The notes under the pieces are model-generated. The model was not told the origin of the DNA. It did no database searches and saw only the letters and a list, made by a program, of their open reading frames with translations. This document shows positions 3,554-18,279 of a stretch of 26,051 bases of DNA, piece after piece. Position 1 is the stretch's first letter. Every line of letters starts with the position of its first letter. Origin of the DNA: a virus (taxonomy: Duplodnaviria; Heunggongvirae; Uroviricota; Caudoviricetes); IMG/VR virus record IMGVR_UViG_3300015186_000011, positions 1 through 26,051 of that record; one strand, written 5' to 3'. Made by a program: the position numbers and the translations under genes.

Positions 3554-3623
3554 GGGCGAAACAAAAGTCAGTGCTACACTCATTGACGCCACATTGAGGT
3601 GGTTTATAGATGGAAATTTCACA

Positions 3624-3785: not shown

Positions 3786-3807
3786 AAACAAGGCCGCGAA
3801 AGCGGCC

Positions 3808-3821: not shown

Positions 3822-3833
3822 ATAGTTTCGTTT

Positions 3834-4092
3834 TGCACATCCCTGTGCCGCCGCCCGTCAGAAGAACCCTGCCTTGTCGTTGATGTACTCCGCGTGCGTC
3901 TGGATATCACGCAGGCATTTGCTCACACCAACGATGTAACAGAACATGGTGGTCAGCTCCGCCGCCGCGCCCGATACATCGTGCCCGTCTTCCTGTAACT
4001 GGTTCAGCAGATTCATCAGCAGTGAGTTCTCCGTCAGACCGAGAACACCAGACGGAGAATGAATCAGACTGCGGTAGCCGGGCTTCAATGGA
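3834..4092. repeat. Right arm of the ~260-bp inverted repeat (partner 2373..2631)
   Basis: See left arm; covers the 3' end of the minus-strand antirepressor gene plus ~24 bp downstream. Confidence 0.7.
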
Positions 4093-4802: not shown

Positions 4803-4877
4803 GTCGTTAATTCCTATACGTAGTTTTACGATACTGAAGCCCTGACGGTCTGGCCACCGTGGGGCTTCGCTGTTTTA
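4803..4877 (+). ncRNA. sar: Candidate sar-like antisense small RNA (~75 nt) complementary to the ant ribosome-binding region
   Basis: A promoter at 4768-4796 and an intrinsic terminator on the same strand (nested hairpin GAAGCCC..ACGGT-ctggcc-ACCGT..GGGCTTC at 4836-4868, then GCTGTTTTAT) bracket a ~75-nt transcript in the arc-ant intercistronic region. This mirrors the sar antisense RNA of P22 immI. Confidence 0.45.
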
Positions 4878-5042
4878 TGCCACGCTATTCTTCTCACCAG
4901 TGAGTCCATACACTTTCCTCAGCTGATAGATAATCTCTGTATTGAACTTTCGGCATTCTTTTTCGCCATTTCTTTCAATAGCTAACTTCACATCGTCCGG
5001 AAAACGAACTCGTCGTTGACACATCTCTTTTGCTTTTTGCAT
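4875..5042 (-). CDS. arc: Arc-like ribbon-helix-helix repressor (55 aa)
   Basis: ATG at 5040-5042 with a strong TAAGGAGA Shine-Dalgarno (the track ORF starts at an upstream GTG). Product MQKAKEMCQRRVRFPDDVKLAIERNGEKECRKFNTEIIYQLRKVYG resembles P22 Arc (..FNLRWPREVLDLVRKVAEENGRSVNSEIYQRV..). It lies upstream of ant and divergent from an Mnt-like gene. Confidence 0.65.
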   Translation of the reverse strand: MQKAKEMCQRRVRFPDDVKLAIERNGEKECRKFNTEIIYQLRKVYGLTGEKNSVA

Positions 5043-5056
5043 TTCATATCTCCTTA

Positions 5057-5071
5057 GCCCCACCGTGGGGC
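5057..5071. promoter_or_regulatory. Palindromic operator candidate GCCCCACCGTGGGGC (Mnt-operator-like core CCACCGTGG) at the predicted +1 of the arc-ant promoter
   Basis: Near-perfect palindrome between the predicted Pant -10 and the arc RBS. The core matches, as I recall it, the P22 mnt operator core CCACGGTGG (reverse complement). The 12-mer CCACCGTGGGGC recurs at 4854-4865. Confidence 0.5.
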
Positions 5072-5077
5072 AAAATA

Positions 5078-5125
5078 ATTGTCACACCGTGCGTCATTGA
5101 TGTCAAGCACACGGTGAGGCATACT
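5078..5125. promoter_or_regulatory. Divergent overlapping promoters: Pant-like (minus strand) and Pmnt-like (plus strand)
   Basis: Minus strand: -35 TTGACA (plus coordinates 5101-5106), 17 bp, extended -10 TGtGACAAT (5078-5083). Plus strand: -35 TTGATG 5097-5102, 17 bp, -10 CATACT 5120-5125. Inverted CACCGTG / CACGGTG half-sites at 5085-5091 and 5110-5116. Confidence 0.5.
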
Positions 5126-5162
5126 TCAATCATTGCAAGTAACTCAATATTTGGTGAAGAAC

Positions 5163-5594
5163 ATGAGCAGAGAAGATCCACAACTAAGGATCAGACTTCC
5201 CGTTGAAGTAAAAGAAAAAATAGAAATTTCTGCAAAAGCCAATAAGCGATCAATGAACGCTGAAATAGTACAACGTCTTGACACCAGCTTTCTGAAAGAT
5301 ATTCATGAAGATGACGTAATTTCTGCTTATGAAGCAAAAATTATTGCAAACAATGCACGACATGAAATATCAAATATTATTTTCAAAAGAACCTTTAATG
5401 AAATTAATAAGAAAATAACACTTGGACATACAAGTTTTTATATAAACCTTAATGACCTTGAACTGGAATCACTTGCAGATAATGATTACCAGATCATCTT
5501 TGAAAAAACATTTAATAAGCTCAATGAACTAGGTTACATCATCTGTGAAAACTCATGGGATGCAGATGGTTTTGGAATTGAAATACCTGAATAG
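5163..5594 (+). CDS. mnt: Mnt-like ribbon-helix-helix repressor with an AT-rich C-terminal extension (143 aa)
   Basis: ATG at 5163 (track ORF starts at a TTG at 5133). N-terminus MSREDPQLRIRLPVEVKEKIEISAKANKRSMNAEIVQRL closely resembles P22 Mnt (MARDDPHFNFRMPMEVREKLKFRAEANGRSMNSELLQIV). The C-terminal ~95 aa have no match I recognise and the DNA turns markedly AT-rich. Confidence 0.7.
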   Translation: MSREDPQLRIRLPVEVKEKIEISAKANKRSMNAEIVQRLDTSFLKDIHEDDVISAYEAKIIANNARHEISNIIFKRTFNEINKKITLGHTSFYINLNDLELESLADNDYQIIFEKTFNKLNELGYIICENSWDADGFGIEIPE

Positions 5595-5607
5595 GAAGAA
5601 CAAAAGG

Positions 5608-5630
5608 CGTGTACATATTACACGTCTTTA
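5608..5630 (+). terminator. Hairpin CGTGTA-catat-TACACG followed by a T-rich tract; putative terminator or operator
   Basis: 6-bp inverted repeat with TCTTTAAT downstream, between the Mnt-like gene and the membrane-protein gene. Confidence 0.3.
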
Positions 5631-5684
5631 ATACAATTGAAAAACGCCACATTACTGATGTATGTTACAACAAGGAGCGATATT

Positions 5685-6248
5685 TTGAAAACCATATCTA
5701 TATTAAAGGTTGCATTAGGCGTCGCTATTATTTTGACTCTCTCAATATTGTTTTATTTTTACCACAAAAAAACTGCTATTGCTCTTGATGGTCACGCGGC
5801 AAACTCATTTTTCTCAGAGTACATAGTGCCGCTATCAGGAAGCGGTATAACAAATAAATATACTGACTATGACATCAAATATGGAATTGATGATGGGGAG
5901 ACTATTGTATTACATGTAATCATTAAAAACCTAATGACAGTAAATAAAAATACAGACTTCAACGATAAAAATACAATACATCACAACAACAGCAAAACAT
6001 TAATTTCTTATAGTAGCAACATCTATACGGATAAATACCTAAAATACATATCAGAAGATACAATAAAAGAAACCCGCGAAAAGTTAAAAAACATATATTG
6101 TGCATCCGGCAGTTTTCACAAATTATCGCCGCAAGAGCGTTTATTCTACGAAGCAAGAAAACAACGTAAGTCAATAATATTACATTATTATGCTGATTCA
6201 GGGGAGTCACTCATATTTAATATTGGGGTTTCCCCTGAATCATGCTAA
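5685..6248 (+). CDS. AT-rich moron: membrane-anchored protein of unknown function (~188 aa), candidate superinfection-exclusion or abortive-infection factor
   Basis: TTG start at 5685 with AGGAG 8 nt upstream (alternatives: ATG 5658, track TTG 5637). N-terminal hydrophobic helix ISILKVALGVAIILTLSILFYFY, then an Asn/Lys/Tyr-rich domain. GC content is far below the flanking phage genes. Confidence 0.5.
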   Translation: MKTISILKVALGVAIILTLSILFYFYHKKTAIALDGHAANSFFSEYIVPLSGSGITNKYTDYDIKYGIDDGETIVLHVIIKNLMTVNKNTDFNDKNTIHHNNSKTLISYSSNIYTDKYLKYISEDTIKETREKLKNIYCASGSFHKLSPQERLFYEARKQRKSIILHYYADSGESLIFNIGVSPESC

Positions 6249-6259
6249 AGGTGTTTAAC

Positions 6260-9200
6260 TCACCGCATCACCGGATCCACCTGGTTTATTAGTGGCGCAA
6301 TCCAGAACAGGTTATTGCCGGGTATCAGGGTTCGGACATTATGCACAATACGATCACCGGCATCACCATTCAACACTCCTGCGGTCACATCAATGATGCT
6401 ATCCGCAAGACCAAATGACGGTCCGAATAGAGATCCTACGAATCCACGACTGGCATACCTAGACTGTGTGCCAGTGCCAAATAAAGCCCCCAGCCCAACA
6501 GCACCACCAGTAGCCTTTTCAGCCATGTTGTTATATTCCATCAATGGCCCAAGAATACCGGATCTATCTATACCCTCAAGCACCAGCTTCTCTGGTGACC
6601 AGTCAACATTTTTCCCTTTCGATGCTTCTTTAAGCGCATAGACCAGTGAGCCAAGAGCAATCTGAAATGCAGTGCCATAATAAAATTGCGCAGTTCCTTC
6701 CTGTAACCCACCAAGTAGCGCACGGTTGTATGAAGCCGTTGTGAATGATTTAAACTGAAATATCGTTCGCCCCATTGGAGTACTCGCCCATAAAGGTGTG
6801 TCACCAATACCGGGGGTGATGATAGTGTTATTAACGTCTTTCAGAACCGCTGACTGGAATACTCCGGCAACGTACTGATCGTCCCATTTATCAAAGTTAC
6901 CAATGTGCCATCCATCAATTACCTCACCATGTTTCTCGAACTCACTGCGAATACGCGCAGCCATATTGTCGTTGATACCGAGTTTTGCCATGCGACGTGC
7001 AGAAAACGCACCAGACAAAATACCGTCTGACGTGAGCATTCCGTTCATGGATTTGTTTATGTCATTAAATCGATCCATGAGTGTCAGCTTGCCGAAGGCA
7101 TCAGTAATTCGCTCCATTCCTGCTTCGACTGCTGTTGTCCTGGAAGAACTGTCAACAAGATCACCAATTGCACGAGAACGTGAATGTAGTACAGTTTCCA
7201 ATCCAATCCCCATCTTCAACATCTCTTCTTTGCTGGCCTTAAATGCCGGTGATTGGGATATCTGAGAAGCATAGCCTTTCATGGTGTTACGGAAACCATT
7301 AACCATAACCCCTCTGGCCAGATCTGGAATAGCTGATACTGTCATTCCACCGAGTTTGGTCGTGAAGTTCACATCCCGCAGAAAAGCGCCAGCACGAACA
7401 AAAAACGAAGACGGGTCATCAGGCATACCATATGTACCAACAAGACGATCGCGTAATGCTGTTATGTCTCTGAGATCATTTGCTCTTGATTTTGAAAGTC
7501 TGGACTGTTCTTTCCGTAATTCCTTTTCGTACTTTCGCATTAATGAATCGAGTTTACCCTGAGGAACAACTTCACCATTGCTCTCATAACGTGCTTTCAG
7601 ATTTGCCACACTTTCGTCATATTTCGCCTTTATTTTTTCAGGCACTTCCCGTAACAGACTGTCATATTCGTCCTCAATTAATTGCAGACGCTCAGTCATA
7701 GTTCGTTTGCCAAATGTTCTCGTCAACTCAATTTCTGCTGCCGCTTCACGGATATGACGTTGCAGCACGTAATTCACATCACTTTCAAGATAATCCCTGA
7801 TAAGACTATCAGGAACATTTAATGTTCTTTCTTTCGTACTACCTGCGGCTTTTACAGAAAATACGCTGACAAAATCCTGTGGAACCTTAGCACCAGTAAT
7901 TTTATTAATTACGATATCCGCTGCAATTTCAGCATCCTCAGGATCCAGTGTTTTATTGCCTCTCGACCACCAGTCAACCAAAATACGTCGAAATTTATCG
8001 CGTTCACTGATTATTTTTCCAACTTTATATATACGTGGAAAATAGCTTGCCTGGCCTAATGCTTTCAGTTCTTCATCTGGCGGTAATAAACCAAGCTTTT
8101 GCATTTCAACCTTCACCCGATTTAATACAGTTCGCATCGCCTGCGCCGTTTCCTGAACAACAGGATTAGCATGCACATCACCGCTTCGCATAGCATTCCC
8201 AACCTGCTGACGAAATGAATCAAAACTCATGTCGCCACCATCAGCTTTATACTTTGCGTATGCCTGTTTATTTCCGACAACAACAGCAGCTTCTTCACGC
8301 TGCCATCCACGTGTACGGGTTTCTACAGCTACCGGTGTTTCAATCCCCCTTTCATTTCCTTTAAGGGTGAAATTATTTTCGGCTAACTCCAGCGTTGTTT
8401 TTCGCACTGTCTTGGACGGAGACTCCATTAACCTTGTCAAAGGAGTAAGATAGCTCCCTGCTTTCCATGCAGCCTTTCCAACCCACCCACCGGAAACAGG
8501 GGTTAAATCATCCAGAGTCGCTGTATCAATTTTCATAGCACCAACACTACCACCATCAGAAAGCGAAGCGGCAGCCCTGTCAGTCGCTGATGTAATGCTC
8601 ATATTATCAAGAGCATCAGCAACCTCACGCGTGGCTGCAGCCCGGACGGATGGCGAAAGCGCAACACCAGCACTGGCAAACACGCCGCTCATCATCGCAC
8701 CCGCTGCAACGTGAGCGGCACTTTCACCCCATGAGCGTGTTATTTGCTGATTATTCAGCACAACCTCGCTTAATGCTGTACCGGCAGCACCAATCGCAAT
8801 CTGTGAGCCAATACGCGCCAGTGCCCCTCCTTGAGCACCGGGGATAAACATTGACGCAACAGTAACCGGATCCATTCCCGCAGCAATACTGGCAAGAGTT
8901 CCAACTACGCCAGCATCAGACAATAAACGTCTGTCTTCATTTTCATCATCTATCTGCTGCTTAATCCACGCCGTTTCCTCTGGCGATCGGGAATCTGCAA
9001 ATTTCGCCCCCCAGTATTCATAACCGTGCAACTCATTTTTATCAGCATATGGGTTATAACCTTCGACCGGTTCAAACTGTCTGGCTGGTCGGAAAAAACC
9101 AGCCAGAATATTGTTCTGTCGCATTGCAGCCCCCCATACGGAAGGCTCCGGTGGCAATGGCTCAGGATTAGCCCCTTCCGGAAGGGCAACATCAAACCCA

Positions 9201-9274
9201 GTTTGTTCCGGCAAAACATTACCTGACGGGATCAGTCCGTTATTAAGATCTTCAGCTTGTGCATAAACTGGCAT
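6260..9274 (-). CDS. Large internal virion / ejection protein (1004 aa), T7 gp16-position analogue
   Basis: Last and largest ORF of the coupled structural operon; its start overlaps the upstream stop (TAATG at 9274). Ala/Gly-rich with coiled-coil segments. Assignment is by size and synteny only. Confidence 0.55.
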   Translation of the reverse strand: MPVYAQAEDLNNGLIPSGNVLPEQTGFDVALPEGANPEPLPPEPSVWGAAMRQNNILAGFFRPARQFEPVEGYNPYADKNELHGYEYWGAKFADSRSPEETAWIKQQIDDENEDRRLLSDAGVVGTLASIAAGMDPVTVASMFIPGAQGGALARIGSQIAIGAAGTALSEVVLNNQQITRSWGESAAHVAAGAMMSGVFASAGVALSPSVRAAATREVADALDNMSITSATDRAAASLSDGGSVGAMKIDTATLDDLTPVSGGWVGKAAWKAGSYLTPLTRLMESPSKTVRKTTLELAENNFTLKGNERGIETPVAVETRTRGWQREEAAVVVGNKQAYAKYKADGGDMSFDSFRQQVGNAMRSGDVHANPVVQETAQAMRTVLNRVKVEMQKLGLLPPDEELKALGQASYFPRIYKVGKIISERDKFRRILVDWWSRGNKTLDPEDAEIAADIVINKITGAKVPQDFVSVFSVKAAGSTKERTLNVPDSLIRDYLESDVNYVLQRHIREAAAEIELTRTFGKRTMTERLQLIEDEYDSLLREVPEKIKAKYDESVANLKARYESNGEVVPQGKLDSLMRKYEKELRKEQSRLSKSRANDLRDITALRDRLVGTYGMPDDPSSFFVRAGAFLRDVNFTTKLGGMTVSAIPDLARGVMVNGFRNTMKGYASQISQSPAFKASKEEMLKMGIGLETVLHSRSRAIGDLVDSSSRTTAVEAGMERITDAFGKLTLMDRFNDINKSMNGMLTSDGILSGAFSARRMAKLGINDNMAARIRSEFEKHGEVIDGWHIGNFDKWDDQYVAGVFQSAVLKDVNNTIITPGIGDTPLWASTPMGRTIFQFKSFTTASYNRALLGGLQEGTAQFYYGTAFQIALGSLVYALKEASKGKNVDWSPEKLVLEGIDRSGILGPLMEYNNMAEKATGGAVGLGALFGTGTQSRYASRGFVGSLFGPSFGLADSIIDVTAGVLNGDAGDRIVHNVRTLIPGNNLFWIAPLINQVDPVMR

Positions 9275-11991
9275 TATTTAGATCCCCACGAAAAGTAATC
9301 TTTAAATTTGTCCATACGTTCGTTATGCAGGCGCTGATACTGCTCATCCAGAGCGCGATGCTTGTCTTTGAAGTTTCGTATAGCCTGTCCACGCATAATT
9401 TCTTCCTGCTCGTACTGCTCCCATTCCTGCTGCATTTTCTTATAAGGTTCCCAATCTTCTAGTGATGGTTCCCAACGCATAGGACGCCCATGTTTGTTAT
9501 AAAACGGCTGGACCCGATCGATGCCATTTTCATCCTTAGTTCTTACCATAATGGCGTAATCACCATTACGAGGTGTTAACACGTCAGGGGTTATGAATAA
9601 TTCTCCATTAATACGACTCTCAGGGGTTTTTGTCTCAACTACAGGAGCATTACCTGACGTGATCCCAAGCAACGTCGGACTGGTTGTTATAATCTCTTTG
9701 CGCTCACCGTACATCAGCCGTTCTTTTTCAGCTTTCCACTGCGCCGCCTGCCAGCCTGACGGCCCATATTGATAAAGCGCCTCCGGTGCATATTTCATAA
9801 ACTGCGCTTCTCCGTTAACCTCGCTGATACTCCAGGTGCGGGCTATCTGCTGGTTGGTCATTTGCTTCGCTACGTCAGCGTTACCACCAGCAACGCGGTA
9901 GTTAATGTCATACAGCGTCTGATAGTCATTACGGAATCTAGCTGCTTCCGGCGTCTGGTCATCCGCAGACGGATCCCAACGGAACCACTGCGCCATATTG
10001 CTGACAGCAGAATTCATCGCCTTGCTGCGATCATTTTTGTACTCTTTTGAACTCTGCGTTGATGCCAATTGAGCTTTAAGAGCATCGGTCTGGTTGTACG
10101 TAAGGTTCTGCGCCTGCTCGATAGCCGCATCAGCAGACATGCCAGAATCAGTTAGTTGCTTAACAGTCAGATAAAAACCCTGCATATCCTTCGGCATATT
10201 TCCAATAGATGCATTGTCTGTTTCATATAACCGACTAAACAGTTCCGCCGCATTTTTAACCACTTCCTGATTGCTGGATCGGGATACTGCTGAAAGCTGC
10301 GTGATGACCTGCGAAGGCATTATGCCAGTCTGAGCCACAAGCCGAACAACCCCATCATGAGTGGAGGCATCATTAATACGAAAGTTCTGCGCCATTTCTG
10401 TGTAATCAGCAGCTTTCTGCATTGACTTGTTGCTTGGGTCTAATTTTTCACCTATTGTCAGCGCCTCATTGAATCTGCGTGAATCCCGTTGCGCCTGAAT
10501 TGCTTCATTTGATCTCTGAAGCAATGCAGACAATTTTCCGTAAGCATCGAGTTTTAACGCATAGTGAGGATCGTTAACCTCAGGCTTCACTTTCTGCATT
10601 TCTTCTTGCTGCTGAGAAGGAGGCAAATACTGAATTGCCTGGAATATTCTCGCGTTATCAATCGCTATATCCAGTTGATTGATTATTTTATCTGCGTTTT
10701 TTCCATACCCCCTGATGATGGTCTCCTGAGCCGGTATATAATCTGGAACCTCACCGTTATATAGCTGTGCCATGGTGTTATTAATAGCTGGCTCAAGCTG
10801 TTCTAATATTAACTTCCTTTGCTTTTCTATCTGACTATTAGCAAGGTTATCTATTTGATAAATAGTCAGCGGATCCATTCCAGTTTTATTTTTTCTATAT
10901 CGGGAAAGCCACCCTTGTGTTTCTGATGGAAGATTTCGGATAAATTCTTCTTCTGATATTTCACCTTTACGTGGATCACCGACTTTGGCGATCAGTTTAT
11001 CCACGTTACCCATCCCCCAGTTATATGCTGCTCCGGTCAATATTTCGGAACCGTACTTACCATACAGTTGATTTACATAGTCACTGGCGAGCATTTCATG
11101 CTGTTGTTCGTCCGTAGGGTTGTATTCAACGCCACGCTTGGCCGCCAGTTCTTTTCCTGTGCCCGGCATTAACTGGTATTTCCCCTGTGCTCTCTCTCCA
11201 GAAGATGTTATCGGTCCCTCAAGAAGACTACCATCAGGATTAAAATGTCGATCACCTGATTCAACAAGGCGTATGGCACGCATGTCCATGCCTCCAGAAT
11301 CATTTTTCTGAAACAGACCATTTAGCCATCCTTCTGGATTGGCAGCGGCATAATTCTTCGCCCGCATTTCTGTGGCACTGCGATCATCACTTTCTATTTC
11401 TTCCAGAATGCGTTCTTGTGACCATCCCCTGGCAGCTCCATATCTGGCAATGGCTACCATTCTGGAATTTCGGGCTAAGGTGGCAGTTTGCGGGTCATTC
11501 CAGGCATCCGCTTCATTTTGTATCCATAATTTTCTCGTTGCCTGATATTGCTCATCTTCATAGGCATTTGTCTGCCCTATCTCATGTCTGAGAACTCCAG
11601 TACTGAACTGAATTTTCTGTGTTCTGGCTTGTTGCAAAAACATATTTCTTGCTGCTTCATCAGTCAATGAAGCAGCTATTTCTTCCACATCCTGATCAAA
11701 TCCAGATATGTACTCTTGCCCCTTACCAATCGCATTTTTGCCTTGTTGTGCATAAAAACCGGTTTGAGGGTTATAAAGACGTTCATTGCTGCGCTGATTA
11801 AGCTGAAGGATGGCATCCTGAGACAATGCAACATTCGCTTTCTGCCTGGCTTCACCATATGCCACCGCATACTGATCTGCGACATTCGCCAGCACCTGAC
11901 CTGCTTGAGGAACATCGAAGGTCTGAAAACCACCGGTTTGCACACCACGACTTTGCACCTGACGTCCGGATATTGTTGGTACGACTGGCAT
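9274..11991 (-). CDS. Internal virion protein with a soluble lytic transglycosylase (SLT) domain (906 aa)
   Basis: True start is probably the ATG at 11991 (MPVVPTISG..), with GGAGG 6 nt upstream and a TAATG overlap with the preceding gene; the track ORF extends to 12066. SLT signature LVESGDRHFNP...SSGERAQGKYQLMPGTGKELA...TGAAYNWGMGNV lies at roughly 11000-11310. Confidence 0.65.
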   Translation of the reverse strand: MPVVPTISGRQVQSRGVQTGGFQTFDVPQAGQVLANVADQYAVAYGEARQKANVALSQDAILQLNQRSNERLYNPQTGFYAQQGKNAIGKGQEYISGFDQDVEEIAASLTDEAARNMFLQQARTQKIQFSTGVLRHEIGQTNAYEDEQYQATRKLWIQNEADAWNDPQTATLARNSRMVAIARYGAARGWSQERILEEIESDDRSATEMRAKNYAAANPEGWLNGLFQKNDSGGMDMRAIRLVESGDRHFNPDGSLLEGPITSSGERAQGKYQLMPGTGKELAAKRGVEYNPTDEQQHEMLASDYVNQLYGKYGSEILTGAAYNWGMGNVDKLIAKVGDPRKGEISEEEFIRNLPSETQGWLSRYRKNKTGMDPLTIYQIDNLANSQIEKQRKLILEQLEPAINNTMAQLYNGEVPDYIPAQETIIRGYGKNADKIINQLDIAIDNARIFQAIQYLPPSQQQEEMQKVKPEVNDPHYALKLDAYGKLSALLQRSNEAIQAQRDSRRFNEALTIGEKLDPSNKSMQKAADYTEMAQNFRINDASTHDGVVRLVAQTGIMPSQVITQLSAVSRSSNQEVVKNAAELFSRLYETDNASIGNMPKDMQGFYLTVKQLTDSGMSADAAIEQAQNLTYNQTDALKAQLASTQSSKEYKNDRSKAMNSAVSNMAQWFRWDPSADDQTPEAARFRNDYQTLYDINYRVAGGNADVAKQMTNQQIARTWSISEVNGEAQFMKYAPEALYQYGPSGWQAAQWKAEKERLMYGERKEIITTSPTLLGITSGNAPVVETKTPESRINGELFITPDVLTPRNGDYAIMVRTKDENGIDRVQPFYNKHGRPMRWEPSLEDWEPYKKMQQEWEQYEQEEIMRGQAIRNFKDKHRALDEQYQRLHNERMDKFKDYFSWGSK

Positions 11992-12536
11992 TATAATCCT
12001 CCGGGTAATCTGGTTCCTGCTGCTGCCCCGATTGGCGCAGGAGTGCTTTGAGTAAACGGACTCCACGTCCCACCAAACATCTGGTACGCACCGTATGCCT
12101 TCAGAGGCGCAGTGAGCAATGTTGTTGCTGCTCCCACATTCCCCTGTTTACGGGCTGAACTGGCTTCTGCTTTATAGTTGGCAGCCTGAACCTGATAACC
12201 GTAAGCCTCGCGTTGCGCGTTATTCACCGTCGTCAGCGAATCAAGAGCGCCAAACTGGGCAGTGTCGCCAAATATATCCAGCGCGTTACCGGTAGATAAA
12301 TCGGCGCCGGTCGCCCCCATTGTCGCCGCTTGAGTACCAAGCCGCTGTCGGGTCTCTCTGCGCCGTTGCTCAGCTTCAGCGTTACCTCTGTTTATTGCAT
12401 CATTTGCCTGAGCAGTGGCTATATCTGCGTTCGCTTCTGCAACCTTCGAGGCATACTTTCCCTGTTGGTACTGGGTGTATGCCTGAATGCCACTCATGGC
12501 GAGCATTGCGCCACCAGCAATAACCGGATCGCACAT
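11991..12536 (-). CDS. Putative internal virion protein (181 aa), gp14-position analogue
   Basis: Translationally coupled to both neighbours; Ala/Gln-rich; size and position match T7-like gp14. No family signature recognised. Confidence 0.45.
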   Translation of the reverse strand: MCDPVIAGGAMLAMSGIQAYTQYQQGKYASKVAEANADIATAQANDAINRGNAEAEQRRRETRQRLGTQAATMGATGADLSTGNALDIFGDTAQFGALDSLTTVNNAQREAYGYQVQAANYKAEASSARKQGNVGAATTLLTAPLKAYGAYQMFGGTWSPFTQSTPAPIGAAAGTRLPGGL

Positions 12537-13000
12537 TATTTTCTCTCCATGTGAAATCTGTGGAAATTAAGACCAAGAGCACCATAAGGCGCGGCTTCTT
12601 CAAGCCTGAATCCAAGCCAGTGCAGCCATGCTTTGGCAACATGGTTTCGCTCGTCGACGTAGTTTTCCAGGCGCGGATAAACTGCCAGCATCTGCTGCAA
12701 TACAGGTCGGCAGTGGCGAAGAAATGTCTTCTGATATTTTTCAATACGGCTGGTTCCTACCAGCCAGGGTGTACCATTGCCACCGATCATTGACGCCGGA
12801 GATACACCAAACATGGTTACCAGTTCTCCGTTCGCGAACCCTGACCAGGCCATAGTCGCAGTGCGAAGACCAACACGCAGCGCATCTTCGGTAGTCATCA
12901 GCGATACCGCATACAGTTCGTCAATATCAACCTGACGAACATCCGGCAAAATCATCTGAAGATGCTCTTCGGTGGCGGGAATAATTCGAACATCGATCAT
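12536..13000 (-). CDS. Putative internal virion protein (154 aa), gp13-position analogue
   Basis: Translationally coupled (shares one base with each neighbour); call is positional. Confidence 0.45.
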   Translation of the reverse strand: MIDVRIIPATEEHLQMILPDVRQVDIDELYAVSLMTTEDALRVGLRTATMAWSGFANGELVTMFGVSPASMIGGNGTPWLVGTSRIEKYQKTFLRHCRPVLQQMLAVYPRLENYVDERNHVAKAWLHWLGFRLEEAAPYGALGLNFHRFHMERK

Positions 13001-15465
13001 CAGAATCCCCCAACAGTAAGACGAGGAATAACGGCAAGAACAGACAGCGGCAACGGGTCAAGCTGACGGATTCTTACACGTCCGTTTTTGCCCCAGTTAC
13101 TGTCCAGTTTCACTTCTACTTTTCCGGTAGCGTCATCAACAGGATCATCGTAGAACTCGAATTCACGCTGTGGATATTCGTACCATTTACCGCCGGGCGT
13201 AGTCGCCCAGATGCCACGACTGGCATTCACAACCAGAGTAACGGACGGGATCACCTGTTTTTTGTCCAGCAGCGTTTCCTGTCCGTTAATGTTGATATCC
13301 AGTGTTTCGAATTCAGCAGTTATTGGCAGGCCGATGTGCACTACAGCCCCAGGTGATTCCAGCGTGACGGCACCTCCGGAAACCACTTTCTGTGGTTCCA
13401 CGTTCGCATCAGAGAGAATGTTTACGGTCTGGCCTTCAAGATGAGACAGGCCTCCAAATGTCCGGCGCGCCATCTGCCAGTTCGTGGTGGCCACATTCCT
13501 GAGGGATGGCGGGACGTTCCTGTTAGCACGAACCACTACAGCGGTATTGCTGGTTACAGAAATAATGTCGCAACGTAATTCTTTTGACACTTCAGTATCA
13601 GGATCAGTTCCGGTATAAGGGAACTGTAGTTGCGCGCCGACATCACTACTGGTGAAGTACGCACCACCAGAAACACTGATTGTATATTCCGCACGGTAAT
13701 CCCATTCACCAGAACCACCAGTGATGGTCATCGTTCTGTCAGACGTATTTCTTCCATCATAGCTAAGGCCAGAATCAACAAAGAAAGCATCTTCATCGCT
13801 GGTAAATAAACGGCTGGACAGTCGCTCTATGTATCTCACTGTTTGCCCGTTAACGGTTCGGTTAACGACGAAATACACCGCATCTTCATTGCCTTCGCTG
13901 ATACTGCATGTGCTTTCATATTTTCCGGTACTGGATTGTGGTGCCCATGCAAAAACCTGCTGATCACGCAAATAGGTCATCACCAGTAATTTACCGTCAT
14001 CACGAATGCAGAAGGCGCTGGAGTAAGGGACAATCGAGAAGCACCAGTCAACAATGCTGTGCTTCTGAAAAAGATGATTGGCAAGGATGGTCAGGTCGTT
14101 CCCCTGATAGCCGTCAACATCGAATGAGTAGGCCAGATCACGGACAACACTGCCTTTCTCCTGGACGAACAGAGCAATATTCGCCACGGCAATTGGTGGG
14201 ACATTGCTCGAGCCATTTGATCCCTGAGAGCTGAATGCAAATGATGATGGGGTAAGCACTTTGTTCTGGTCGCCAGTGATGACGTACTCACCTCCGGAAG
14301 TCAGCGCCACCAGCGAACCAACATCAATCAGGTGACGGATCTCATTAACCTGACGCCCGGCATAGGTGTAGATAATTCTGTCGTCATCCTGCGTAGGATT
14401 GCTTTTGCCAAAATCCTTATAATCCCCGGTACGGCTGGCCCAGATAGTCTGAGGGAACGCAGTCGATGCGGCGAAGTAAAGGCGTTGTTGATAATAAACA
14501 ACAGTGCCAGGATAACCGTTAATACTGTTCCAGGCATATTTAGCCCATTTATAGCTGGCATTATCCTCGCCAACTACCTGCGAAGGGATATAGGAAATCA
14601 CCTCGGCAGTTGCAGTAGTTCCATTTGCAGCAGAGATACGGGCAATGCCAAAACCACTGTGCAGATACTCCCACTCAATGCCGGTATCATCATCACCGGA
14701 TCCGCCCCAGCCATCCCATGATGTGCCTTCTGTATGCGAAGGGCGCAAAGTGCCTGTTTTGCCTGCTGTAACGGCGCGATAGTAGTTACTGTCTGCACGG
14801 CGAATATCGCCAATCGACGTACTCTTACTGGTTTCCCATACCGGCACAGAATCCACTGCAGGCTGTTCCAGATAGAACAATTTGCCTACCTGCTCCGCGC
14901 CAAAAATTGAGGCGCTTGCCGTTAACGTAATTGTCCCAGTGCTGGCGCTGGCATAAACCGTCACTGACTCGTCAATATTGATATCTTCAAATGGCCCGTT
15001 CTTCGTTACCACATCAACCAGTTGCCAGTTGTCATGCGCATAGCGGCGCAACTCTTTCGGCGGGTATGCCGGATGAACCAGCGTAAGCACGTCTGCGCTT
15101 TGCGTGAATTTAATTCGGAACAGATCGGCTTCAGTATATGGCGTGGCAATTTCATAAATAACATTGCTGCTGTTCAGCACCAACGCACCATCTTTGATAA
15201 CGCGCATGTACTGGTGTCCGAACTCCAGAGCATAAGTCTGAACCGTCGAGAACTGGAACGGGATCAGGCGGCATTTCCGATTTGGGTATTTGGCGGCACC
15301 GACAAAACGCGTACCAGGTCGATTCTCAACGCCGCCATACTGCCGCACGATAAAGTTATCGCACTTGCGCAATGCCACCTGGTACTTCGCCATGTCGATA
15401 CGACCGTACAACGACGGTCCAATCTCACCACCGGCAAAGCTGGGCTGGATCCAACTGATAGCCAT
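13000..15465 (-). CDS. Putative tail tubular protein B-like (821 aa)
   Basis: Size and order (202 aa then 821 aa directly after the capsid-associated genes) mirror T7 gp11 (196 aa) and gp12 (794 aa). No sequence-level confirmation. Confidence 0.5.
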   Translation of the reverse strand: MAISWIQPSFAGGEIGPSLYGRIDMAKYQVALRKCDNFIVRQYGGVENRPGTRFVGAAKYPNRKCRLIPFQFSTVQTYALEFGHQYMRVIKDGALVLNSSNVIYEIATPYTEADLFRIKFTQSADVLTLVHPAYPPKELRRYAHDNWQLVDVVTKNGPFEDINIDESVTVYASASTGTITLTASASIFGAEQVGKLFYLEQPAVDSVPVWETSKSTSIGDIRRADSNYYRAVTAGKTGTLRPSHTEGTSWDGWGGSGDDDTGIEWEYLHSGFGIARISAANGTTATAEVISYIPSQVVGEDNASYKWAKYAWNSINGYPGTVVYYQQRLYFAASTAFPQTIWASRTGDYKDFGKSNPTQDDDRIIYTYAGRQVNEIRHLIDVGSLVALTSGGEYVITGDQNKVLTPSSFAFSSQGSNGSSNVPPIAVANIALFVQEKGSVVRDLAYSFDVDGYQGNDLTILANHLFQKHSIVDWCFSIVPYSSAFCIRDDGKLLVMTYLRDQQVFAWAPQSSTGKYESTCSISEGNEDAVYFVVNRTVNGQTVRYIERLSSRLFTSDEDAFFVDSGLSYDGRNTSDRTMTITGGSGEWDYRAEYTISVSGGAYFTSSDVGAQLQFPYTGTDPDTEVSKELRCDIISVTSNTAVVVRANRNVPPSLRNVATTNWQMARRTFGGLSHLEGQTVNILSDANVEPQKVVSGGAVTLESPGAVVHIGLPITAEFETLDININGQETLLDKKQVIPSVTLVVNASRGIWATTPGGKWYEYPQREFEFYDDPVDDATGKVEVKLDSNWGKNGRVRIRQLDPLPLSVLAVIPRLTVGGF

Positions 15466-16073
15466 CAGGACAACCTCGCAATGGTAAACTCGTCAACCGG
15501 TGGCTGTGGTTCCTGTGATTCATTCTGGCTATGCGAGCCAGCACTAAGAATCACGCGATTGTACATATTGAGGGCAAACGTACCGAGGTCTGCATTCCCA
15601 GTCAGCGCCATGTTAATAGCTGCCGCAAGACGCCAGGCCAACGCCTCCATAAAAATGGCATCAAACATGTTCACATCTGAAACGCGAGAGACATACTTGA
15701 GCCATGCCTGCGGCTGGTCTGTGTAGATCAACTTTCCTGTTCCGTCGGTGTCTGCACCAACTTCGTACTGAACGCGCATTGCTGCTGTTGGATTGCGAAC
15801 ACCGGGAAGCATGATTTCAGTGATGCGCAGGCAATCAGACGGGTACTGATACGCATACGCCCAGTCAGGCGGTGGATTGCTCGTATCTGCAAGCGCCACG
15901 CGTTTGGTAGCAAAGTTCCAGTCAAAATCAGAAAGCACAGCATCACGACAGGCATCGAAATGCAGGGAACACTCCCCCGCCTCTTTGCTGGCCTCAGTCA
16001 GGCTATTGATGCTGCGACTGTTGCCGATATTCGACAGCGCGCGGTTGCAGATCTCGACAACAGAAGCCATCAC
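15465..16073 (-). CDS. Putative tail tubular protein A-like (202 aa)
   Basis: Position and size as for T7 gp11; coupled to neighbours (ATGA overlap at 16070-16073). Confidence 0.45.
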   Translation of the reverse strand: MMASVVEICNRALSNIGNSRSINSLTEASKEAGECSLHFDACRDAVLSDFDWNFATKRVALADTSNPPPDWAYAYQYPSDCLRITEIMLPGVRNPTAAMRVQYEVGADTDGTGKLIYTDQPQAWLKYVSRVSDVNMFDAIFMEALAWRLAAAINMALTGNADLGTFALNMYNRVILSAGSHSQNESQEPQPPVDEFTIARLS

Positions 16074-16399
16074 TCACCCCCGTTACCGTAAAGGGTTTCA
16101 GCAGCGGATTTATCCGGCTCGCCGGTTGCAGGTGCGATCGCCATGTCGGTGATCTGCAGGTCTGCGCTACGGTTAACGCCGTCATCAGTTTCGCGGGCAG
16201 ACAGTCCGCGAATTACCGCCTTAGCAGTAATCATCACTTCGGTTCCTACACCCTGCGGTTGCGCCTTGAGCTTATTCAGCGTGTCATTGTTCAACGTGAT
16301 GCAAAGCCCCCATGGATATTCGTCGCGGTTTTTGGTTTCTCCGCTCTCGTCCTGGTAGCTGTCGGTGCCGGTTTTGAGGTTGACCAGTTCCATATACAC
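16070..16399 (-). CDS. Hypothetical virion-associated protein (109 aa)
   Basis: ORF in the structural operon, coupled to the downstream gene; unknown family. Confidence 0.45.
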   Translation of the reverse strand: MYMELVNLKTGTDSYQDESGETKNRDEYPWGLCITLNNDTLNKLKAQPQGVGTEVMITAKAVIRGLSARETDDGVNRSADLQITDMAIAPATGEPDKSAAETLYGNGGE

Positions 16400-16409
16400 T
16401 CCTGCAATA

Positions 16410-16427
16410 AAGGGGCCGAAGCCCCTT
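16410..16427 (-). other. Intra-operon stem-loop AAGGGGC-ttcg-GCCCCTT (UUCG tetraloop on the minus strand)
   Basis: Perfect 7-bp stem between two structural genes, followed on the minus strand by only a short U-rich stretch. Likely an attenuator or mRNA-stability element rather than a full terminator. Confidence 0.4.
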
Positions 16428-16443
16428 GTCTGATACGCGAGGC

Positions 16444-16779
16444 TTACACGCCCAGTTCTTTGCGCTTATCTGCGATTTTCTCGCGAAGCGTTTCGGCTTT
16501 GGCGTTATGGTGCGGCTTCTCGTTAAAGAGCAGTTCATACTCTTCGCGGATCTTATCCAGATCGCCATCTTCGGCTGCATCGTTGATGGGTTTGGCACTG
16601 GTTACGGTTTCTGCTGCTTTACCTGTAACCTTTGCTTTCGCCGCCTTCGCTGCATCGTTGATGGGCTCCAGTGCACTACCTGGCTCGCCGTCGTATTCAA
16701 TTTCAGAGCCCTCCGGCCACAGGTTATTGTGGATATGAGAGAGGCGCAGAACGCGGTACTTCGGTTTCTCACCTGACAT
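16444..16779 (-). CDS. Hypothetical acidic protein (111 aa)
   Basis: ORF in the structural operon; Lys/Ala/Glu-rich; unknown family. Confidence 0.4.
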   Translation of the reverse strand: MSGEKPKYRVLRLSHIHNNLWPEGSEIEYDGEPGSALEPINDAAKAAKAKVTGKAAETVTSAKPINDAAEDGDLDKIREEYELLFNEKPHHNAKAETLREKIADKRKELGV

Positions 16780-16789
16780 CGATATCCCC

Positions 16790-17227
16790 TTAGCCGGTTA
16801 CTTTGGAGCGGATCGGATACGGCGTATTTGCATCAACATCCAGGTTAATGCCGGAAGTGAATTTGCCGGCCGTTAGTGGGCCAGTTGCGACGGAGTAGTT
16901 AACACGCAGATATCGCTGAACACCGGCAGGCACCTTTGCAGAAACAACTCGTTTACCTGCTGTCAGGGTAGCCTTTGCCAGTGCGCCACTATCATAAATA
17001 GTGGACCATGAGCTGTTATTCTCACTCGTCTGCAACTGGATGTTTACAGTTGCCTCACCACTTGCCGTGGCGGCTTCGTTAACCAGCGCCCAAAACTCAA
17101 GCGGGTAACCCACGCCGATATCGCGACGATTTCCATCAATTGGACCTAGATCGATTACGTCAGTAGAAGCCGCGGTATCAGTTACCGCCTGTGCTTCGGA
17201 GAACATCAACAGTTTGTCGGTGATCAT
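16790..17227 (-). CDS. Putative capsid decoration / minor structural protein (145 aa)
   Basis: Directly downstream of the major capsid gene with a GGAGAAAG RBS; Thr/Ser/Ala-rich beta-type composition. Functional call is positional. Confidence 0.4.
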   Translation of the reverse strand: MITDKLLMFSEAQAVTDTAASTDVIDLGPIDGNRRDIGVGYPLEFWALVNEAATASGEATVNIQLQTSENNSSWSTIYDSGALAKATLTAGKRVVSAKVPAGVQRYLRVNYSVATGPLTAGKFTSGINLDVDANTPYPIRSKVTG

Positions 17228-17241
17228 CTTCTTTCTCCATT

Positions 17242-17263
17242 AGTGGGTCTGTTACGACCCACT
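17242..17263 (-). other. Perfect 8-bp stem-loop AGTGGGTC-n6-GACCCACT immediately 3' of the major capsid gene
   Basis: No U-run follows on the coding strand; such hairpins after capsid genes typically stabilise the upstream transcript or partially attenuate read-through. Confidence 0.45.
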
Positions 17264-17278
17264 GGTTAATAACAGGCG

Positions 17279-18271
17279 TTACACCACACGGGCTTCTGTT
17301 TCCAGAAGCGCATCAGTTTCACGGATTGGTACACCACGGAATGAAGTCCACCACTCGCCTTCTGTCTCTTTTACGCTGATCGCCAGAGATGTTTTCTCCA
17401 GAGATTGCAGATCAAGAGCCTGGCCTACAGTGCGGTTCATGTAGAACACCGGGCGACCCATTCCACGGTTTGGAATGCGATGCAGTGCTTTAACCATCAA
17501 CTTCGCAATATTTGCGGCAGAGGAAGGTTCTGAAAGATTGCTGACATCGATGTTTGCAATGCGAACAACATAACGCCAGTCACGCAGAGCAAGTCCGTTG
17601 TCCCATTTGTAATGGGTGCGATAGCCTTCGTACTTGCCGCCATTAGCATCTTCCAGTGTCACCTGGCCTTTATCTTCCATCTGGATGCCAGCCTTCTGCC
17701 CTTTCGGGAAGATGCCATGCACGGTGTTTTCGCCCCACACCACTAACCAGATTGAGGTGTTATCTGTACCCGTGCCACCAGCATCAATGATGTTCTGAGC
17801 ATTACCTGCAGACAGGCTGGAATAGCGGGAGGACAGTCCCATAAACTGCTGAGGGTTAACGCTGGAATCACCATAAAACAGCGTCTGCGCCATCTGCTGA
17901 TTCATCGCTTCAATAAATGCGCGGTCTTCAGACAGGCGGAATTCGGCGGTATTGCCGTTCAGATCAGCCAGTGACTTATCGACTTCAGCATAGGTTTCCA
18001 GCATGCCAACGGAATCGGTTACCTGCACTGTGGTTGATTTGCTTGGCTGTACGCCATAGTTCAGCAAACGCCAGGTAGCTGAAGGTAAACCAGAACGAAT
18101 GGTGGTTCGGTGTCCGGTAGGAAGGTTCCCTTCGACAAAAGGCATATCCTGAAGGATCGGGTTAGTTTGACCGAGAAGCTCGATAATCTTATCGACTTTC
18201 CCGTTTGGATCGACGCGCTTACCCCAGTCAGCCAGCGTTAGCGCAGTTAAGCCTTTAACAGCCATTGTCAT
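17279..18271 (-). CDS. Major capsid protein (330 aa)
   Basis: Strong RBS AAGAGAGGAA; located right after the scaffold-like gene; size and order are typical of podovirus capsid genes; a 3' hairpin follows. Confidence 0.6.
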   Translation of the reverse strand: MTMAVKGLTALTLADWGKRVDPNGKVDKIIELLGQTNPILQDMPFVEGNLPTGHRTTIRSGLPSATWRLLNYGVQPSKSTTVQVTDSVGMLETYAEVDKSLADLNGNTAEFRLSEDRAFIEAMNQQMAQTLFYGDSSVNPQQFMGLSSRYSSLSAGNAQNIIDAGGTGTDNTSIWLVVWGENTVHGIFPKGQKAGIQMEDKGQVTLEDANGGKYEGYRTHYKWDNGLALRDWRYVVRIANIDVSNLSEPSSAANIAKLMVKALHRIPNRGMGRPVFYMNRTVGQALDLQSLEKTSLAISVKETEGEWWTSFRGVPIRETDALLETEARVV

Positions 18272-18279
18272 TTCCTCTC

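What the first reader, a model, noticed from the sequence alone, without database searches (positions are those of the whole stretch)
6260..16073. T7-like tail-tubular and internal-virion gene series in a temperate prophage
After the capsid-proximal genes the ORF sizes run 202, 821, 154, 181, 906 and 1004 aa, closely matching the T7 gp11-gp16 series (196, 794, 138, 196, 747, 1318 aa). The lytic transglycosylase domain sits in the fifth protein rather than the sixth. Every junction from 16073 down to 9274 is a one- or four-base stop/start overlap, indicating tight translational coupling. Taken with the immunity module and LexA-controlled antirepressor, the element is a temperate podovirus with an ejection apparatus of T7 type.
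Basis: inference. Interest (0 to 1): 0.45.

Follow-up and report, generated by a model that had tools for sequence, protein, structure and literature searches.

The report
T7-type tail and ejection genes, known prophage

Summary
The six minus-strand genes are 201, 821, 154, 181, 905 and 1004 aa. All six junctions are one-base UGAUG/UAAUG overlaps.

The region is 98.7% identical to gp33-gp38 of Escherichia phage TL-2011b. It also sits as a chromosomal prophage in at least 45 complete E. coli genomes.

Links to T7, protein by protein:
- w1: the model has the T7 gp11 adaptor fold (Foldseek E=1e-6).
- w2: the family links to nozzle / tail tubular B proteins and to Pfam Phage_nozzle.
- w3: shares PHROG 308 with T7 gp13.
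- w4: passes Pfam T7_gp14.
- w6: shares PHROG 342 with T7 gp16 but lacks its N-terminal transglycosylase domain.
- w5: carries an SLT domain with the catalytic motifs intact. Its link to T7 gp15 is weak, but three independent methods agree.

No similarity to P22 tail or ejection proteins was found.

The T7-like core of epsilon15-type phages is published, and so is a muralytic domain on the gp15-like protein. I rate the finding already known.

One extra result: prophages with ~99% identical adaptor and nozzle genes carry at least four different ejection cassettes. TL-2011b has a two-gene back end and epsilon15/phiV10 a three-gene one.

The parts
15465..16070 (-). w1, 201 aa: head-to-tail adaptor, T7 gp11 / tail tubular protein A type (equivalent to TL-2011b gp33, phiV10 p14, epsilon15 gp11)
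   Evidence: 98% aa identity to phiV10 p14 and 86% to epsilon15 gp11. PHROG 394 'tail protein'. AF2 model with pLDDT 86. Foldseek against PDB: Carin-1 connector 8ck1_E at 1.5e-16, LME-1 9efk at 3.8e-9, T7 gp11 7box_M at 9.8e-7 with TM 0.61, plus KP32 tail tubular protein A and the PhiM1 adaptor.
13000..15465 (-). w2, 821 aa: tail nozzle, T7 gp12 / tail tubular protein B type
   Evidence: PDB 8ck1_A 'Tail Nozzle' at E=4.8e-218. The family profile A4 also hits LME-1 orf18 (1e-52), cyanophage A4 'Tail tubular protein B' (1.3e-4) and 'nozzle gp13' (4.5e-4). Two of 30 family members hit Pfam Phage_nozzle PF25675, best E=3.6e-7. Direct hhalign to the T7 gp12 family is only weak but collinear: P=0.012, 303-575 against 318-606.
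12536..13000 (-). w3, 154 aa: T7 gp13-like internal virion / core-assembly protein
   Evidence: PHROG 308 at E=1e-61, the same PHROG as T7 gp13. hhalign of the family against the T7 gp13 family gives 95.6% probability over 128 columns.
11991..12536 (-). w4, 181 aa: T7 gp14-like ejection protein (outer-membrane pore in T7)
   Evidence: Pfam PF24072 T7_gp14 at 31.2 bits (gathering score 27), E=2.5e-7, aa 1-160. PHROG 418 'internal virion protein'. RefSeq names the homologue 'virion core protein, T7 gp14 family'.
9274..11991 (-). w5, 905 aa: gp15-position ejection protein with an embedded lytic transglycosylase domain
   Evidence: The N-terminal ~250 aa are 42-44% identical to epsilon15 gp15 and phiV10 p18, and the rest is unrelated to them. 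Weak, concordant links to T7 gp15: BLASTP E=0.022 (451-623 against 73-258), hhalign P=0.028 (432-621 against 54-256), and the two top Foldseek PDB hits 7k5c_A and 6yt5_A at E~1e-3 with the next hit at 0.4, using a low-confidence model of pLDDT 56. BFVD hits are 700-980 aa podovirus proteins with assorted muralytic domains, including an 'Internal virion protein' of phage JG068.
10930..11322 (-). SLT (family 1 lytic transglycosylase) domain inside w5, about aa 224-354
   Evidence: Pfam SLT at aa 264-343, E=3.7e-7. BLASTP of w5 224-354 against T7 gp16 13-142, 30% identity, E=4e-4. Motifs E244-S, YQLMP at 272 and AYNWG at 322 are present. PDB Slt70-type hits at E=2.4e-3.
6260..9274 (-). w6, 1004 aa: T7 gp16-like ejection protein lacking the N-terminal transglycosylase domain
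   Evidence: PHROG 342 'internal virion protein with endolysin domain' at E=6e-210, with aa 24-1002 matching profile positions 203-1225 of 1235. T7 gp16 is in the same PHROG and matches positions 4-1227. BLASTP w6 97-227 against gp16 298-426 at E=0.006. hhalign of the families gives 78% probability, 741-987 against 987-1295. The epsilon15 gp17 family aligns to w6 331-996 at 98.5%.

Best explanation
Window 6260-16073 (minus strand) is the distal half of the late structural operon of a TL-2011b-type temperate podovirus, a relative of phiV10 and epsilon15.

The six genes encode, in order:
1. a gp11-type adaptor;
2. a gp12-type nozzle;
3. a gp13-like core-assembly protein;
4. a gp14-like ejection protein;
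5. a gp15-position protein with an embedded SLT transglycosylase;
6. a gp16-like protein without the transglycosylase domain.

Shown here: gene structure and junctions; identity to a known phage; family or fold links of w1, w2, w3, w4 and w6 to the T7 proteins; an SLT domain with intact motifs in w5; and a T7 gp8-family portal upstream.

Inferred from the T7 mechanism and from epsilon15 cryo-EM as summarised in PMC8954989: the adaptor and nozzle build the short tail hub under the portal, and w4-w6 are packaged as an internal core on the portal. On infection they would be ejected through the nozzle. w4 would then form the outer-membrane pore. w5 would form the periplasmic tunnel and cut the peptidoglycan with its own SLT domain. 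w6 would bridge the inner membrane.

The one-base overlaps, each with its own Shine-Dalgarno-like site, and the dearth of promoter-like sites fit a single, translationally coupled transcript. Coupling itself is inferred, not shown.
For: - Identity to TL-2011b gp33-gp38: 98.7% over 100% of the region.
- Chromosomal prophage copies: at least 80% coverage in 45 genomes, and one integrated example with flanking host genes.
- w1 fold matches T7 gp11.
- w2 links to nozzle proteins.
- w3 and T7 gp13 share PHROG 308, and hhalign gives 95.6%.
- w4 passes Pfam T7_gp14.
- w6 and T7 gp16 share PHROG 342, with supporting BLASTP and hhalign matches.
- w5 has an SLT domain and its motifs. Three weak signals point to gp15, with BFVD support.
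- The portal belongs to Pfam Head-tail_con, the T7 gp8 family, at E=1e-187. The capsid staple (Gp10-like) and cement (Bbp16) genes are of epsilon15/BPP-1 type.
- Junctions are shown. There are 8 promoter-like sites in 5000-17500, against 18.4 expected from shuffles.
Against: - T7 gp11, gp12 and gp15 fall in different PHROGs from w1, w2 and w5.
- The window proteins do not hit Pfam Tube or Phage_nozzle directly.
- hhalign of the w1, w2, w4 and w5 families against shallow T7 family alignments is not significant (P = 0.01-0.07).
- The w5 model is low confidence (pLDDT 56, pTM 0.26) and its Foldseek TM-scores are ~0.1.
- I saw no virion proteomics or structure for TL-2011b itself.
- An older genetic study of epsilon15 placed gp15 and gp17 in the tail hub rather than the core. 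I know it only second hand, through PMC12391199.
Confidence: 0.88

Rival explanations
1. Only part of the series is T7-related. On this reading w5 is not a gp15 homologue. It would be an unrelated virion-borne muralytic protein that merely occupies the gp15 position, so it is analogous rather than homologous.
For: w5 and T7 gp15 are in different PHROGs (1044 and 1339). There is no Pfam link. The best direct statistics are marginal: BLASTP E=0.022, hhalign P=0.028, and Foldseek E=1e-3 on a model with pLDDT 56. PMC8954989 states that gp15-like proteins are mostly matched by size and synteny.
Against: Three independent methods each rank T7 gp15 first. BLASTP and hhalign agree on the register (w5 ~430-620 against gp15 ~55-258). 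In Foldseek the two T7 gp15 chains are separated from the next hit by more than 100-fold in E-value. BFVD returns full-length matches to 700-980 aa podovirus internal virion proteins. The model is almost entirely alpha-helical, and so, from my own knowledge, is gp15.
Confidence: 0.12
2. The large proteins w5 and w6 are external tail-hub components rather than internal, ejected core proteins. This is the older genetic model for epsilon15 gp15/gp17.
For: PMC12391199 summarises Guichard et al. 2013 as assigning the epsilon15 packaging/injection device to gp4, gp20, gp15 and gp17/16. I could not read the original paper.
Against: w1 and w2 are homologues of proteins that form the adaptor and nozzle in solved tails of Carin-1, LME-1 and T7, so the hub is already accounted for. 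w4 and w6 belong to T7 core-protein families. Epsilon15 shows an internal core stack that is compared with the T7 core (PMC8954989).
Confidence: 0.05
3. The module belongs to a P22-type (gp4/gp10/gp26 with gp7/gp20/gp16) or a siphovirus-type virion architecture. The size match to T7 would then be coincidental.
For: The block downstream of the ejection genes is arranged as in P22: a sieA-position gene, an mnt-like gene, arc and ant. A ClustalW tree in PMC8954989 places epsilon15 gp14 and gp16 near P22.
Against: hhalign and BLASTP of all six families against P22 gp4, gp10, gp26, gp14, gp7, gp20 and gp16 give nothing: probabilities of at most 0.8% and P of at least 0.07. None of the six window proteins hits a siphovirus tail family; among the 30 w2-family members, one distant sequence gave a marginal hit to Pfam Phage_tail_3 (tail tube protein, E=0.0033). 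There are positive links to the T7 families.
Confidence: 0.02

Closest known systems
Escherichia phage TL-2011b (NC_019445 / JQ011317), gp33-gp38
   Same: 98.7% nucleotide identity over the whole region, with the same six genes, the same order and the same one-base overlaps. The window aligns with it from 3530 to 21862 at 98.1%.
   Different: There are a few replaced accessory segments outside the region (around 21862-22271 and 24865-25772). RefSeq labels the fifth gene 'endolysin' and the sixth 'hypothetical protein'.
Uetakevirus phiV10 and epsilon15 (gp11-gp17)
   Same: w1-w4 are 98-100% (phiV10) and 62-88% (epsilon15) identical at the protein level. The portal, capsid, staple and cement genes are of the same type, and both are temperate tailspike podoviruses. 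Window DNA is collinear with phiV10 at 96.9% from 11918 to 24527.
   Different: After gp14 these phages have three large genes (837/600/824 and 842/634/918 aa) instead of two. Only the first ~250 aa of w5 match their gp15. Their muralytic domain is of a different, Enc34-endolysin-like type (PDB 7q47 and 9vvp hits), not Pfam SLT. w6 corresponds to the C-terminal ~700 aa of their gp17. Their middle gene has no clear counterpart here.
Phage T7 gp11-gp16 (adaptor, nozzle, gp13 and the gp14/gp15/gp16 ejectosome)
   Same: Same gene order and similar sizes. There are fold or family links for gp11, gp12 (indirect), gp13, gp14 and gp16, and the portal belongs to the gp8 family. The presumed mechanism is the same: an internal core that is ejected to form a channel across the envelope.
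   Different: Pairwise sequence identity is at or below detection. The transglycosylase domain sits on the gp15-position protein instead of the N-terminus of gp16. The genes overlap by one base, whereas in T7 they are separated by short gaps. The phage is temperate, has no phage RNA polymerase, and carries a tailspike instead of gp17 fibres.
K1E / K1-5 (SP6-like) gp15-like protein with lysozyme activity
   Same: In these phages too the muralytic activity is on the gp15-like protein rather than the gp16-like one. [quoted passage not shown]
   Different: They are lytic phages of another group. I did not compare their sequences here.
Carin-1 phage tail (PDB 8ck1) and Legionella LME-1 phage portal-tail complex (PDB 9efk)
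   Same: These are the closest solved structures of the adaptor and nozzle: the Carin-1 nozzle is 46% identical to w2 at E=5e-218, and its connector matches w1 at E=6e-27.
   Different: They come from other hosts. No ejection-protein chains from these entries matched w3-w6.

Membership tests
T7 gp11 adaptor / tail tubular protein A | The gp11 adaptor fold, encoded between the capsid genes and the nozzle gene | tested here: met
   An AF2 model with pLDDT 86 matches T7 gp11 chains 7box_M, 6r21_M and 7ey7_M (E = 1e-6 to 6e-5, TM ~0.6) and KP32 tail tubular protein A. The gene lies directly upstream of the nozzle gene.
T7 gp11 adaptor / tail tubular protein A | Sequence membership in Pfam Tube (PF17212) or in the T7 gp11 PHROG (446) | tested here: not met
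   Neither w1 nor any of 32 family members hits Pfam. w1 is in PHROG 394, not 446. hhalign gives P=0.07. The relationship is therefore at fold level only.
T7 gp12 nozzle / tail tubular protein B (Pfam Phage_nozzle PF25675) | Sequence or profile match to the nozzle family | tested here: inconclusive
   w2 itself does not hit PF25675 and is in PHROG 376, not 457. However, 2 of 30 family members hit PF25675 (best E=3.6e-7). The family profile also hits PDB 'Tail tubular protein B' 9k09_U (1.3e-4) and 'nozzle gp13' 23sh_T (4.5e-4). The closest solved homologue is named 'Tail Nozzle' (8ck1_A). I made no structure model of w2.
T7 gp13 | Same protein family as T7 gp13 | tested here: met
   Both are in PHROG 308 (w3 at E=1e-61, gp13 at E=1e-42). 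hhalign gives 95.6%. Pfam Phage_T7_Gp13 is not hit at E<=0.01.
T7 gp14 (Pfam T7_gp14 PF24072) | Score above the Pfam gathering threshold | tested here: met
   31.2 bits against a cut-off of 27, E=2.5e-7, covering aa 1-160 of 181.
T7 gp15 (periplasmic tunnel protein) | Detectable sequence or fold homology to gp15 | tested here: inconclusive
   BLASTP E=0.022, hhalign P=0.028 in the same register, and Foldseek top hits 7k5c_A and 6yt5_A at E~1e-3 from a low-confidence model. The two proteins are in different PHROGs.
T7 gp16 (PHROG 342) | Membership of the gp16 family across the body of the protein | tested here: met
   w6 matches PHROG 342 at E=6e-210 over profile positions 203-1225, and T7 gp16 matches the same PHROG at 1355 bits. 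hhalign gives 78% for the C-terminal 250 residues.
T7 gp16 (PHROG 342) | N-terminal lytic transglycosylase domain (gp16 residues ~1-156, catalytic E37) | tested here: not met
   w6 has no Pfam SLT hit, and its PHROG alignment starts at profile position 203. The SLT domain is in w5 instead.
Family 1 lytic transglycosylase (Pfam SLT PF01464) | Domain match plus the catalytic Glu-Ser, GLMQ-like and AYNxG motifs | tested here: met
   PF01464 at 30.2 bits against a cut-off of 21.3. E244-S245, Y-Q-L-M-P at 272 and A-Y-N-W-G at 322 are present. The motif definitions come from my own knowledge. Enzymatic activity is not testable here.
Autographiviridae (T7-like phages as a taxon) | A phage-encoded single-subunit RNA polymerase and a lytic lifestyle | tested here: not met
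   The full TL-2011b annotation has an integrase, a repressor/antirepressor system and no RNA polymerase, and the element is found integrated in chromosomes. Only the virion module is T7-like.
epsilon15/phiV10 group (Uetakevirus and relatives) | Epsilon15-type capsid (gp7 major capsid protein, gp10 staple), collinear gp11-gp14, temperate | tested here: met
   NCBIfam MCP_gp7_epsi_15 equivalog at E=9e-124. Pfam Gp10-like and Bbp16. w1-w4 are 62-100% identical to epsilon15 and phiV10. PMC11522302 calls TL-2011b a Uetakevirus, while the RefSeq record gives no genus.
P22-type tail and ejection proteins (gp4, gp10, gp26, gp14, gp7, gp20, gp16) | Sequence or profile similarity to the P22 proteins | tested here: not met
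   hhalign probabilities are at most 0.8% and there is no BLASTP hit below E=0.1.

The most novel reading that the evidence does not exclude
The ejection genes behave as an exchangeable cassette. Among 74 IMG/VR prophage or phage loci whose adaptor, nozzle and gp13-like genes are ~97-100% identical to the window, at least four unrelated or highly diverged back ends occur: the phiV10 three-gene type (40 loci), the TL-2011b two-gene type (12), a second two-gene type only 30%/42% identical to w5/w6 (16), and a fourth type (6). The gp14-like alleles (100, 95, 84, 63 and 57% identity) assort independently of these back ends.

The novel reading is that this swapping, together with the swapping of the muralytic domain between SLT, Enc34-like lysozyme and GH108, is driven by selection. 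The pressure could come from injection-blocking superinfection exclusion, or from differences in the host envelope. A second part of the reading is that the epsilon15 three-gene layout is a split version of a T7-like gp16. Neither cause nor direction is shown here.
Probability: 0.3. Interest if true: 0.45.

Novelty: already known. Interest (0 to 1): 0.15.

Why it matters
It matters mainly for annotation. RefSeq labels the fifth gene 'endolysin' and the sixth 'hypothetical protein'. They are better described as the tunnel protein carrying the transglycosylase and the gp16-like inner-membrane ejection protein.

The region confirms that a common family of temperate E. coli and Salmonella prophages uses a T7-type ejectosome. 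That was already inferred for epsilon15.

The cassette variation among otherwise near-identical prophages could be a useful natural experiment. It might show which ejection-protein contacts must be conserved and which can be exchanged. That is a lead rather than a result.

Tried and rejected
- hhalign of the window families against single T7 sequences was too insensitive. Even w4 against gp14 failed, although w4 passes the Pfam model.
- Adding 17-19 T7 relatives from IMG/VR improved only gp13 and gp16.
- Scanning all 32 members of the w1 family against Pfam gave no Tube hit.
- NCBIfam gave nothing for the six proteins.
- Single-sequence PDB searches for w3, w4 and w6 gave nothing.
- The search for homologous proteins for w5 listed only relatives of at least 69% identity. 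The alignment for its structure model was therefore shallow and the model poor.
- I could not find a paper for PDB 8ck1. I could not read Chang 2010 or Guichard 2013.
- My first LexA-box pattern had the wrong spacing and was redone.
- The inverted repeat just after the w6 stop lies inside the convergent ORF and has a 25-nt loop. I do not call it a terminator.
- The idea that epsilon15 gp16 is the N-terminal half of a split w6/gp16 has only weak support (P = 0.008-0.035) and remains a lead.

Full report
**Observation**

The six ORFs exist on the minus strand:

| Name | Window coordinates | Length |
|---|---|---|
| w1 | 15465-16070 | 201 aa from ATG (202 from the GTG at 16073) |
| w2 | 13000-15465 | 821 aa |
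| w3 | 12536-13000 | 154 aa |
| w4 | 11991-12536 | 181 aa |
| w5 | 9274-11991 | 905 aa |
| w6 | 6260-9274 | 1004 aa |

The codon at 11994 is ATA and the ATG is at 11991. With the ATG starts, every junction is a one-base overlap, UGAUG or UAAUG. This includes the junction with the upstream staple-protein gene. Each junction has a Shine-Dalgarno-like stretch upstream.

T7 gp11-gp16 are 196, 794, 138, 196, 747 and 1318 aa, so the size parallel is as stated.

Promoter-like sites are fewer than expected in 5000-17500, 8 against 18.4 from shuffles. That fits one long operon.

**What the element is**

The region is 98.7% identical over its full length to gp33-gp38 of Escherichia phage TL-2011b. The rest of the window is largely collinear with that phage, with 3530-21862 aligning at 98.1%. 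TL-2011b carries an integrase.

The same module is found at at least 80% coverage in 45 of 5426 complete E. coli genomes, almost always on the chromosome. One example, strain N25, shows it integrated next to yfgI.

The front of the module, w1-w4, is 98-100% identical in protein to phiV10 p14-p17 and 62-88% to epsilon15 gp11-gp14. Upstream genes are of the same lineage:
- the major capsid protein is the epsilon15 gp7 equivalog;
- a Gp10-like staple and a Bbp16 cement protein are present;
- the portal belongs to Pfam Head-tail_con, the T7 gp8 family, at E=1e-187.

**Links to T7, protein by protein**

- **w1.** There is no Pfam Tube hit, and w1 is in a different PHROG from gp11. A confident AF2 model (pLDDT 86) nevertheless matches T7 gp11 (7box_M, E=9.8e-7, TM 0.61), KP32 tail tubular protein A and other adaptors. 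These come after the closer Carin-1 (8ck1) and LME-1 (9efk) connectors.
- **w2.** It is 46% identical to the Carin-1 'Tail Nozzle' at E=5e-218. A profile of 30 diverse relatives also hits a 'Tail tubular protein B' chain and a 'nozzle' chain. Two members hit Pfam Phage_nozzle, which is the T7 gp12 family. The direct hhalign to gp12 is weak.
- **w3.** It shares PHROG 308 with T7 gp13, and hhalign gives 95.6%.
- **w4.** It passes the Pfam T7_gp14 gathering score.
- **w6.** It shares PHROG 342 with T7 gp16. It aligns only from profile position 203, so it lacks the N-terminal transglycosylase region. BLASTP and hhalign agree on two collinear segments.
- **w5.** This is the weakest link. It is in a different PHROG. 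BLASTP gives E=0.022, hhalign gives P=0.028 in the same register, and a low-confidence model (pLDDT 56) has T7 gp15 chains as its two top PDB hits at E~1e-3, with the next hit at 0.4. BFVD returns many full-length podovirus proteins of 700-980 aa with assorted muralytic domains, and one annotated as an internal virion protein.

**The transglycosylase**

w5 carries a Pfam SLT domain. That domain is 30% identical to the T7 gp16 transglycosylase domain at E=4e-4. The Glu-Ser, GLMQ-like and AYNxG motifs are all present.

It is not new. The epsilon15 RefSeq note already reports a transglycosylase-like HHpred hit for gp15. The review PMC8954989 also notes lysozyme activity on the gp15-like proteins of K1E and K1-5, and calls such domain swapping typical.

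**Rival architectures**

None of the six families shows similarity to P22 gp4, gp10, gp26, gp14, gp7, gp20 or gp16. None of the six window proteins hits a siphovirus tail family. The only tail-tube hit was marginal, from one distant w2-family member against Pfam Phage_tail_3 at E=0.0033.

The resemblance to T7 is limited to the virion module. The phage has no RNA polymerase, is temperate, and carries a tailspike.

**Mechanism (inferred)**

By analogy with T7, and with the epsilon15 core stack and ejection tube cited in PMC8954989, I infer the following:
1. w1 and w2 form the tail hub.
2. w4-w6 are packaged as a core on the portal and ejected on infection.
3. w4 forms the outer-membrane pore.
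4. w5 forms the periplasmic tunnel and cuts the peptidoglycan.
5. w6 crosses the inner membrane.

None of this was tested for TL-2011b.

**Additional result: exchangeable ejection cassettes**

Epsilon15 and phiV10 have three large genes after gp14, whereas the window has two. Window DNA is 96.9% identical to phiV10 from 24527 down to 11918, about 70 nt into w5, and unrelated beyond that point.

I looked at 80 IMG/VR loci whose nozzle gene is ~99% identical to the window. Of these, 74 are complete enough to classify:

| Ejection cassette type | Loci |
|---|---|
| phiV10 type (three genes) | 40 |
| TL-2011b type (two genes) | 12 |
| Second two-gene type, 30%/42% identical to w5/w6 | 16 |
| Fourth type | 6 |

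The gp14-like alleles assort independently of these types.

Across 30 species-level genomes, the w1-w4 front end is conserved out to Halomonas, Marinobacterium and delta- and alphaproteobacterial MAGs, while the back end varies.

The fifth protein carries different muralytic domains at the same position: SLT, an Enc34-endolysin-like domain, or GH108.

Epsilon15 gp17 aligns to w6 residues 331-996 at 98.5%. The idea that epsilon15 gp16 is the split-off N-terminal part of a gp16-like protein has only weak support.

**Verdict**

However, the element is a sequenced phage of a studied group, and its T7-like core and tail have been described. I rate it already known and of low interest. The cassette-exchange pattern is a modest lead.

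Noticed in passing
window 3858-6248: The block directly downstream of the ejection genes is arranged as in P22 immI. A low-GC (34%) ORF with a hydrophobic N-terminus at 5637/5685-6248 (+) sits in the sieA position. An Arc/RHH-domain ORF at 5133-5594 (+) sits in the mnt position. Then come arc at 4875-5063 (-) and ant (Pfam P22_AR_N) at 3858-4802 (-), with a promoter-like TTGACA-17-GACAAT at 5106-5078 (-). The Arc domain of the mnt-position ORF (aa 12-56) lies upstream of the start annotated for TL-2011b gp40, so that annotation is probably too short.
   Followed up: partly
window 1307-1322: There is a perfect LexA-box-like palindrome, CTGTATAAACATACAG, just upstream of ORF 1326-1601 and of the Bro-N domain ORF at 1870-2607 (+). 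A second exact CTGT-N8-ACAG lies at 21791-21806. The count of such sites is not above chance.
   Followed up: partly
window 21599-21675: A tRNA-Arg (anticodon tct) lies on the plus strand between the portal and terminase genes. The E. coli N25 prophage has one at the same place.
   Followed up: no
IMG/VR loci L005-L084 (for example L005 4667-10803, L009 13406-20350): Prophages and phages with ~97-100% identical adaptor, nozzle and gp13-like genes carry four different ejection cassettes: 40 phiV10-type, 12 TL-2011b-type, 16 type C and 6 type D. The gp14-like alleles (100/95/84/63/57% identity) are combined freely with them.
   Followed up: partly
window 10930-11322; L003 12141-14669; L114 13283-15361: The fifth protein of this phage family carries different peptidoglycan-degrading domains at the same relative position (~aa 250-375). 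TL-2011b and type D have SLT. Epsilon15 and phiV10 have a domain matching the PDB 7q47 endolysin and the N-terminus of the 1295-aa Gp29 of PDB 9vvp. An alphaproteobacterial MAG has GH108.
   Followed up: partly
L003 14669-19329 (epsilon15 gp16, gp17) against window 6260-9274: The epsilon15 gp17 family aligns to w6 residues 331-996 (hhalign 98.5%). Epsilon15 gp16 shows only weak similarity to the Gly/Ala-rich N-terminal part of w6. The three-gene layout could be a split gp16-like gene, but this is not established.
   Followed up: partly
L135 10690-13809 and 30250-32000 (E. coli N25 chromosome): A TL-2011b-type prophage in a CSF isolate carries a tailspike with an endosialidase catalytic domain. 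It also has an IS3 element inserted in its Bbp16 cement gene, so that copy is probably defective.
   Followed up: no
window 21862-22271 and 24865-25772: These two short segments do not align with TL-2011b. The rest of the window aligns at 91-98%, apart from an 82% stretch at 1625-2655. The window is therefore a close relative of the deposited phage, not the same sequence.
   Followed up: no
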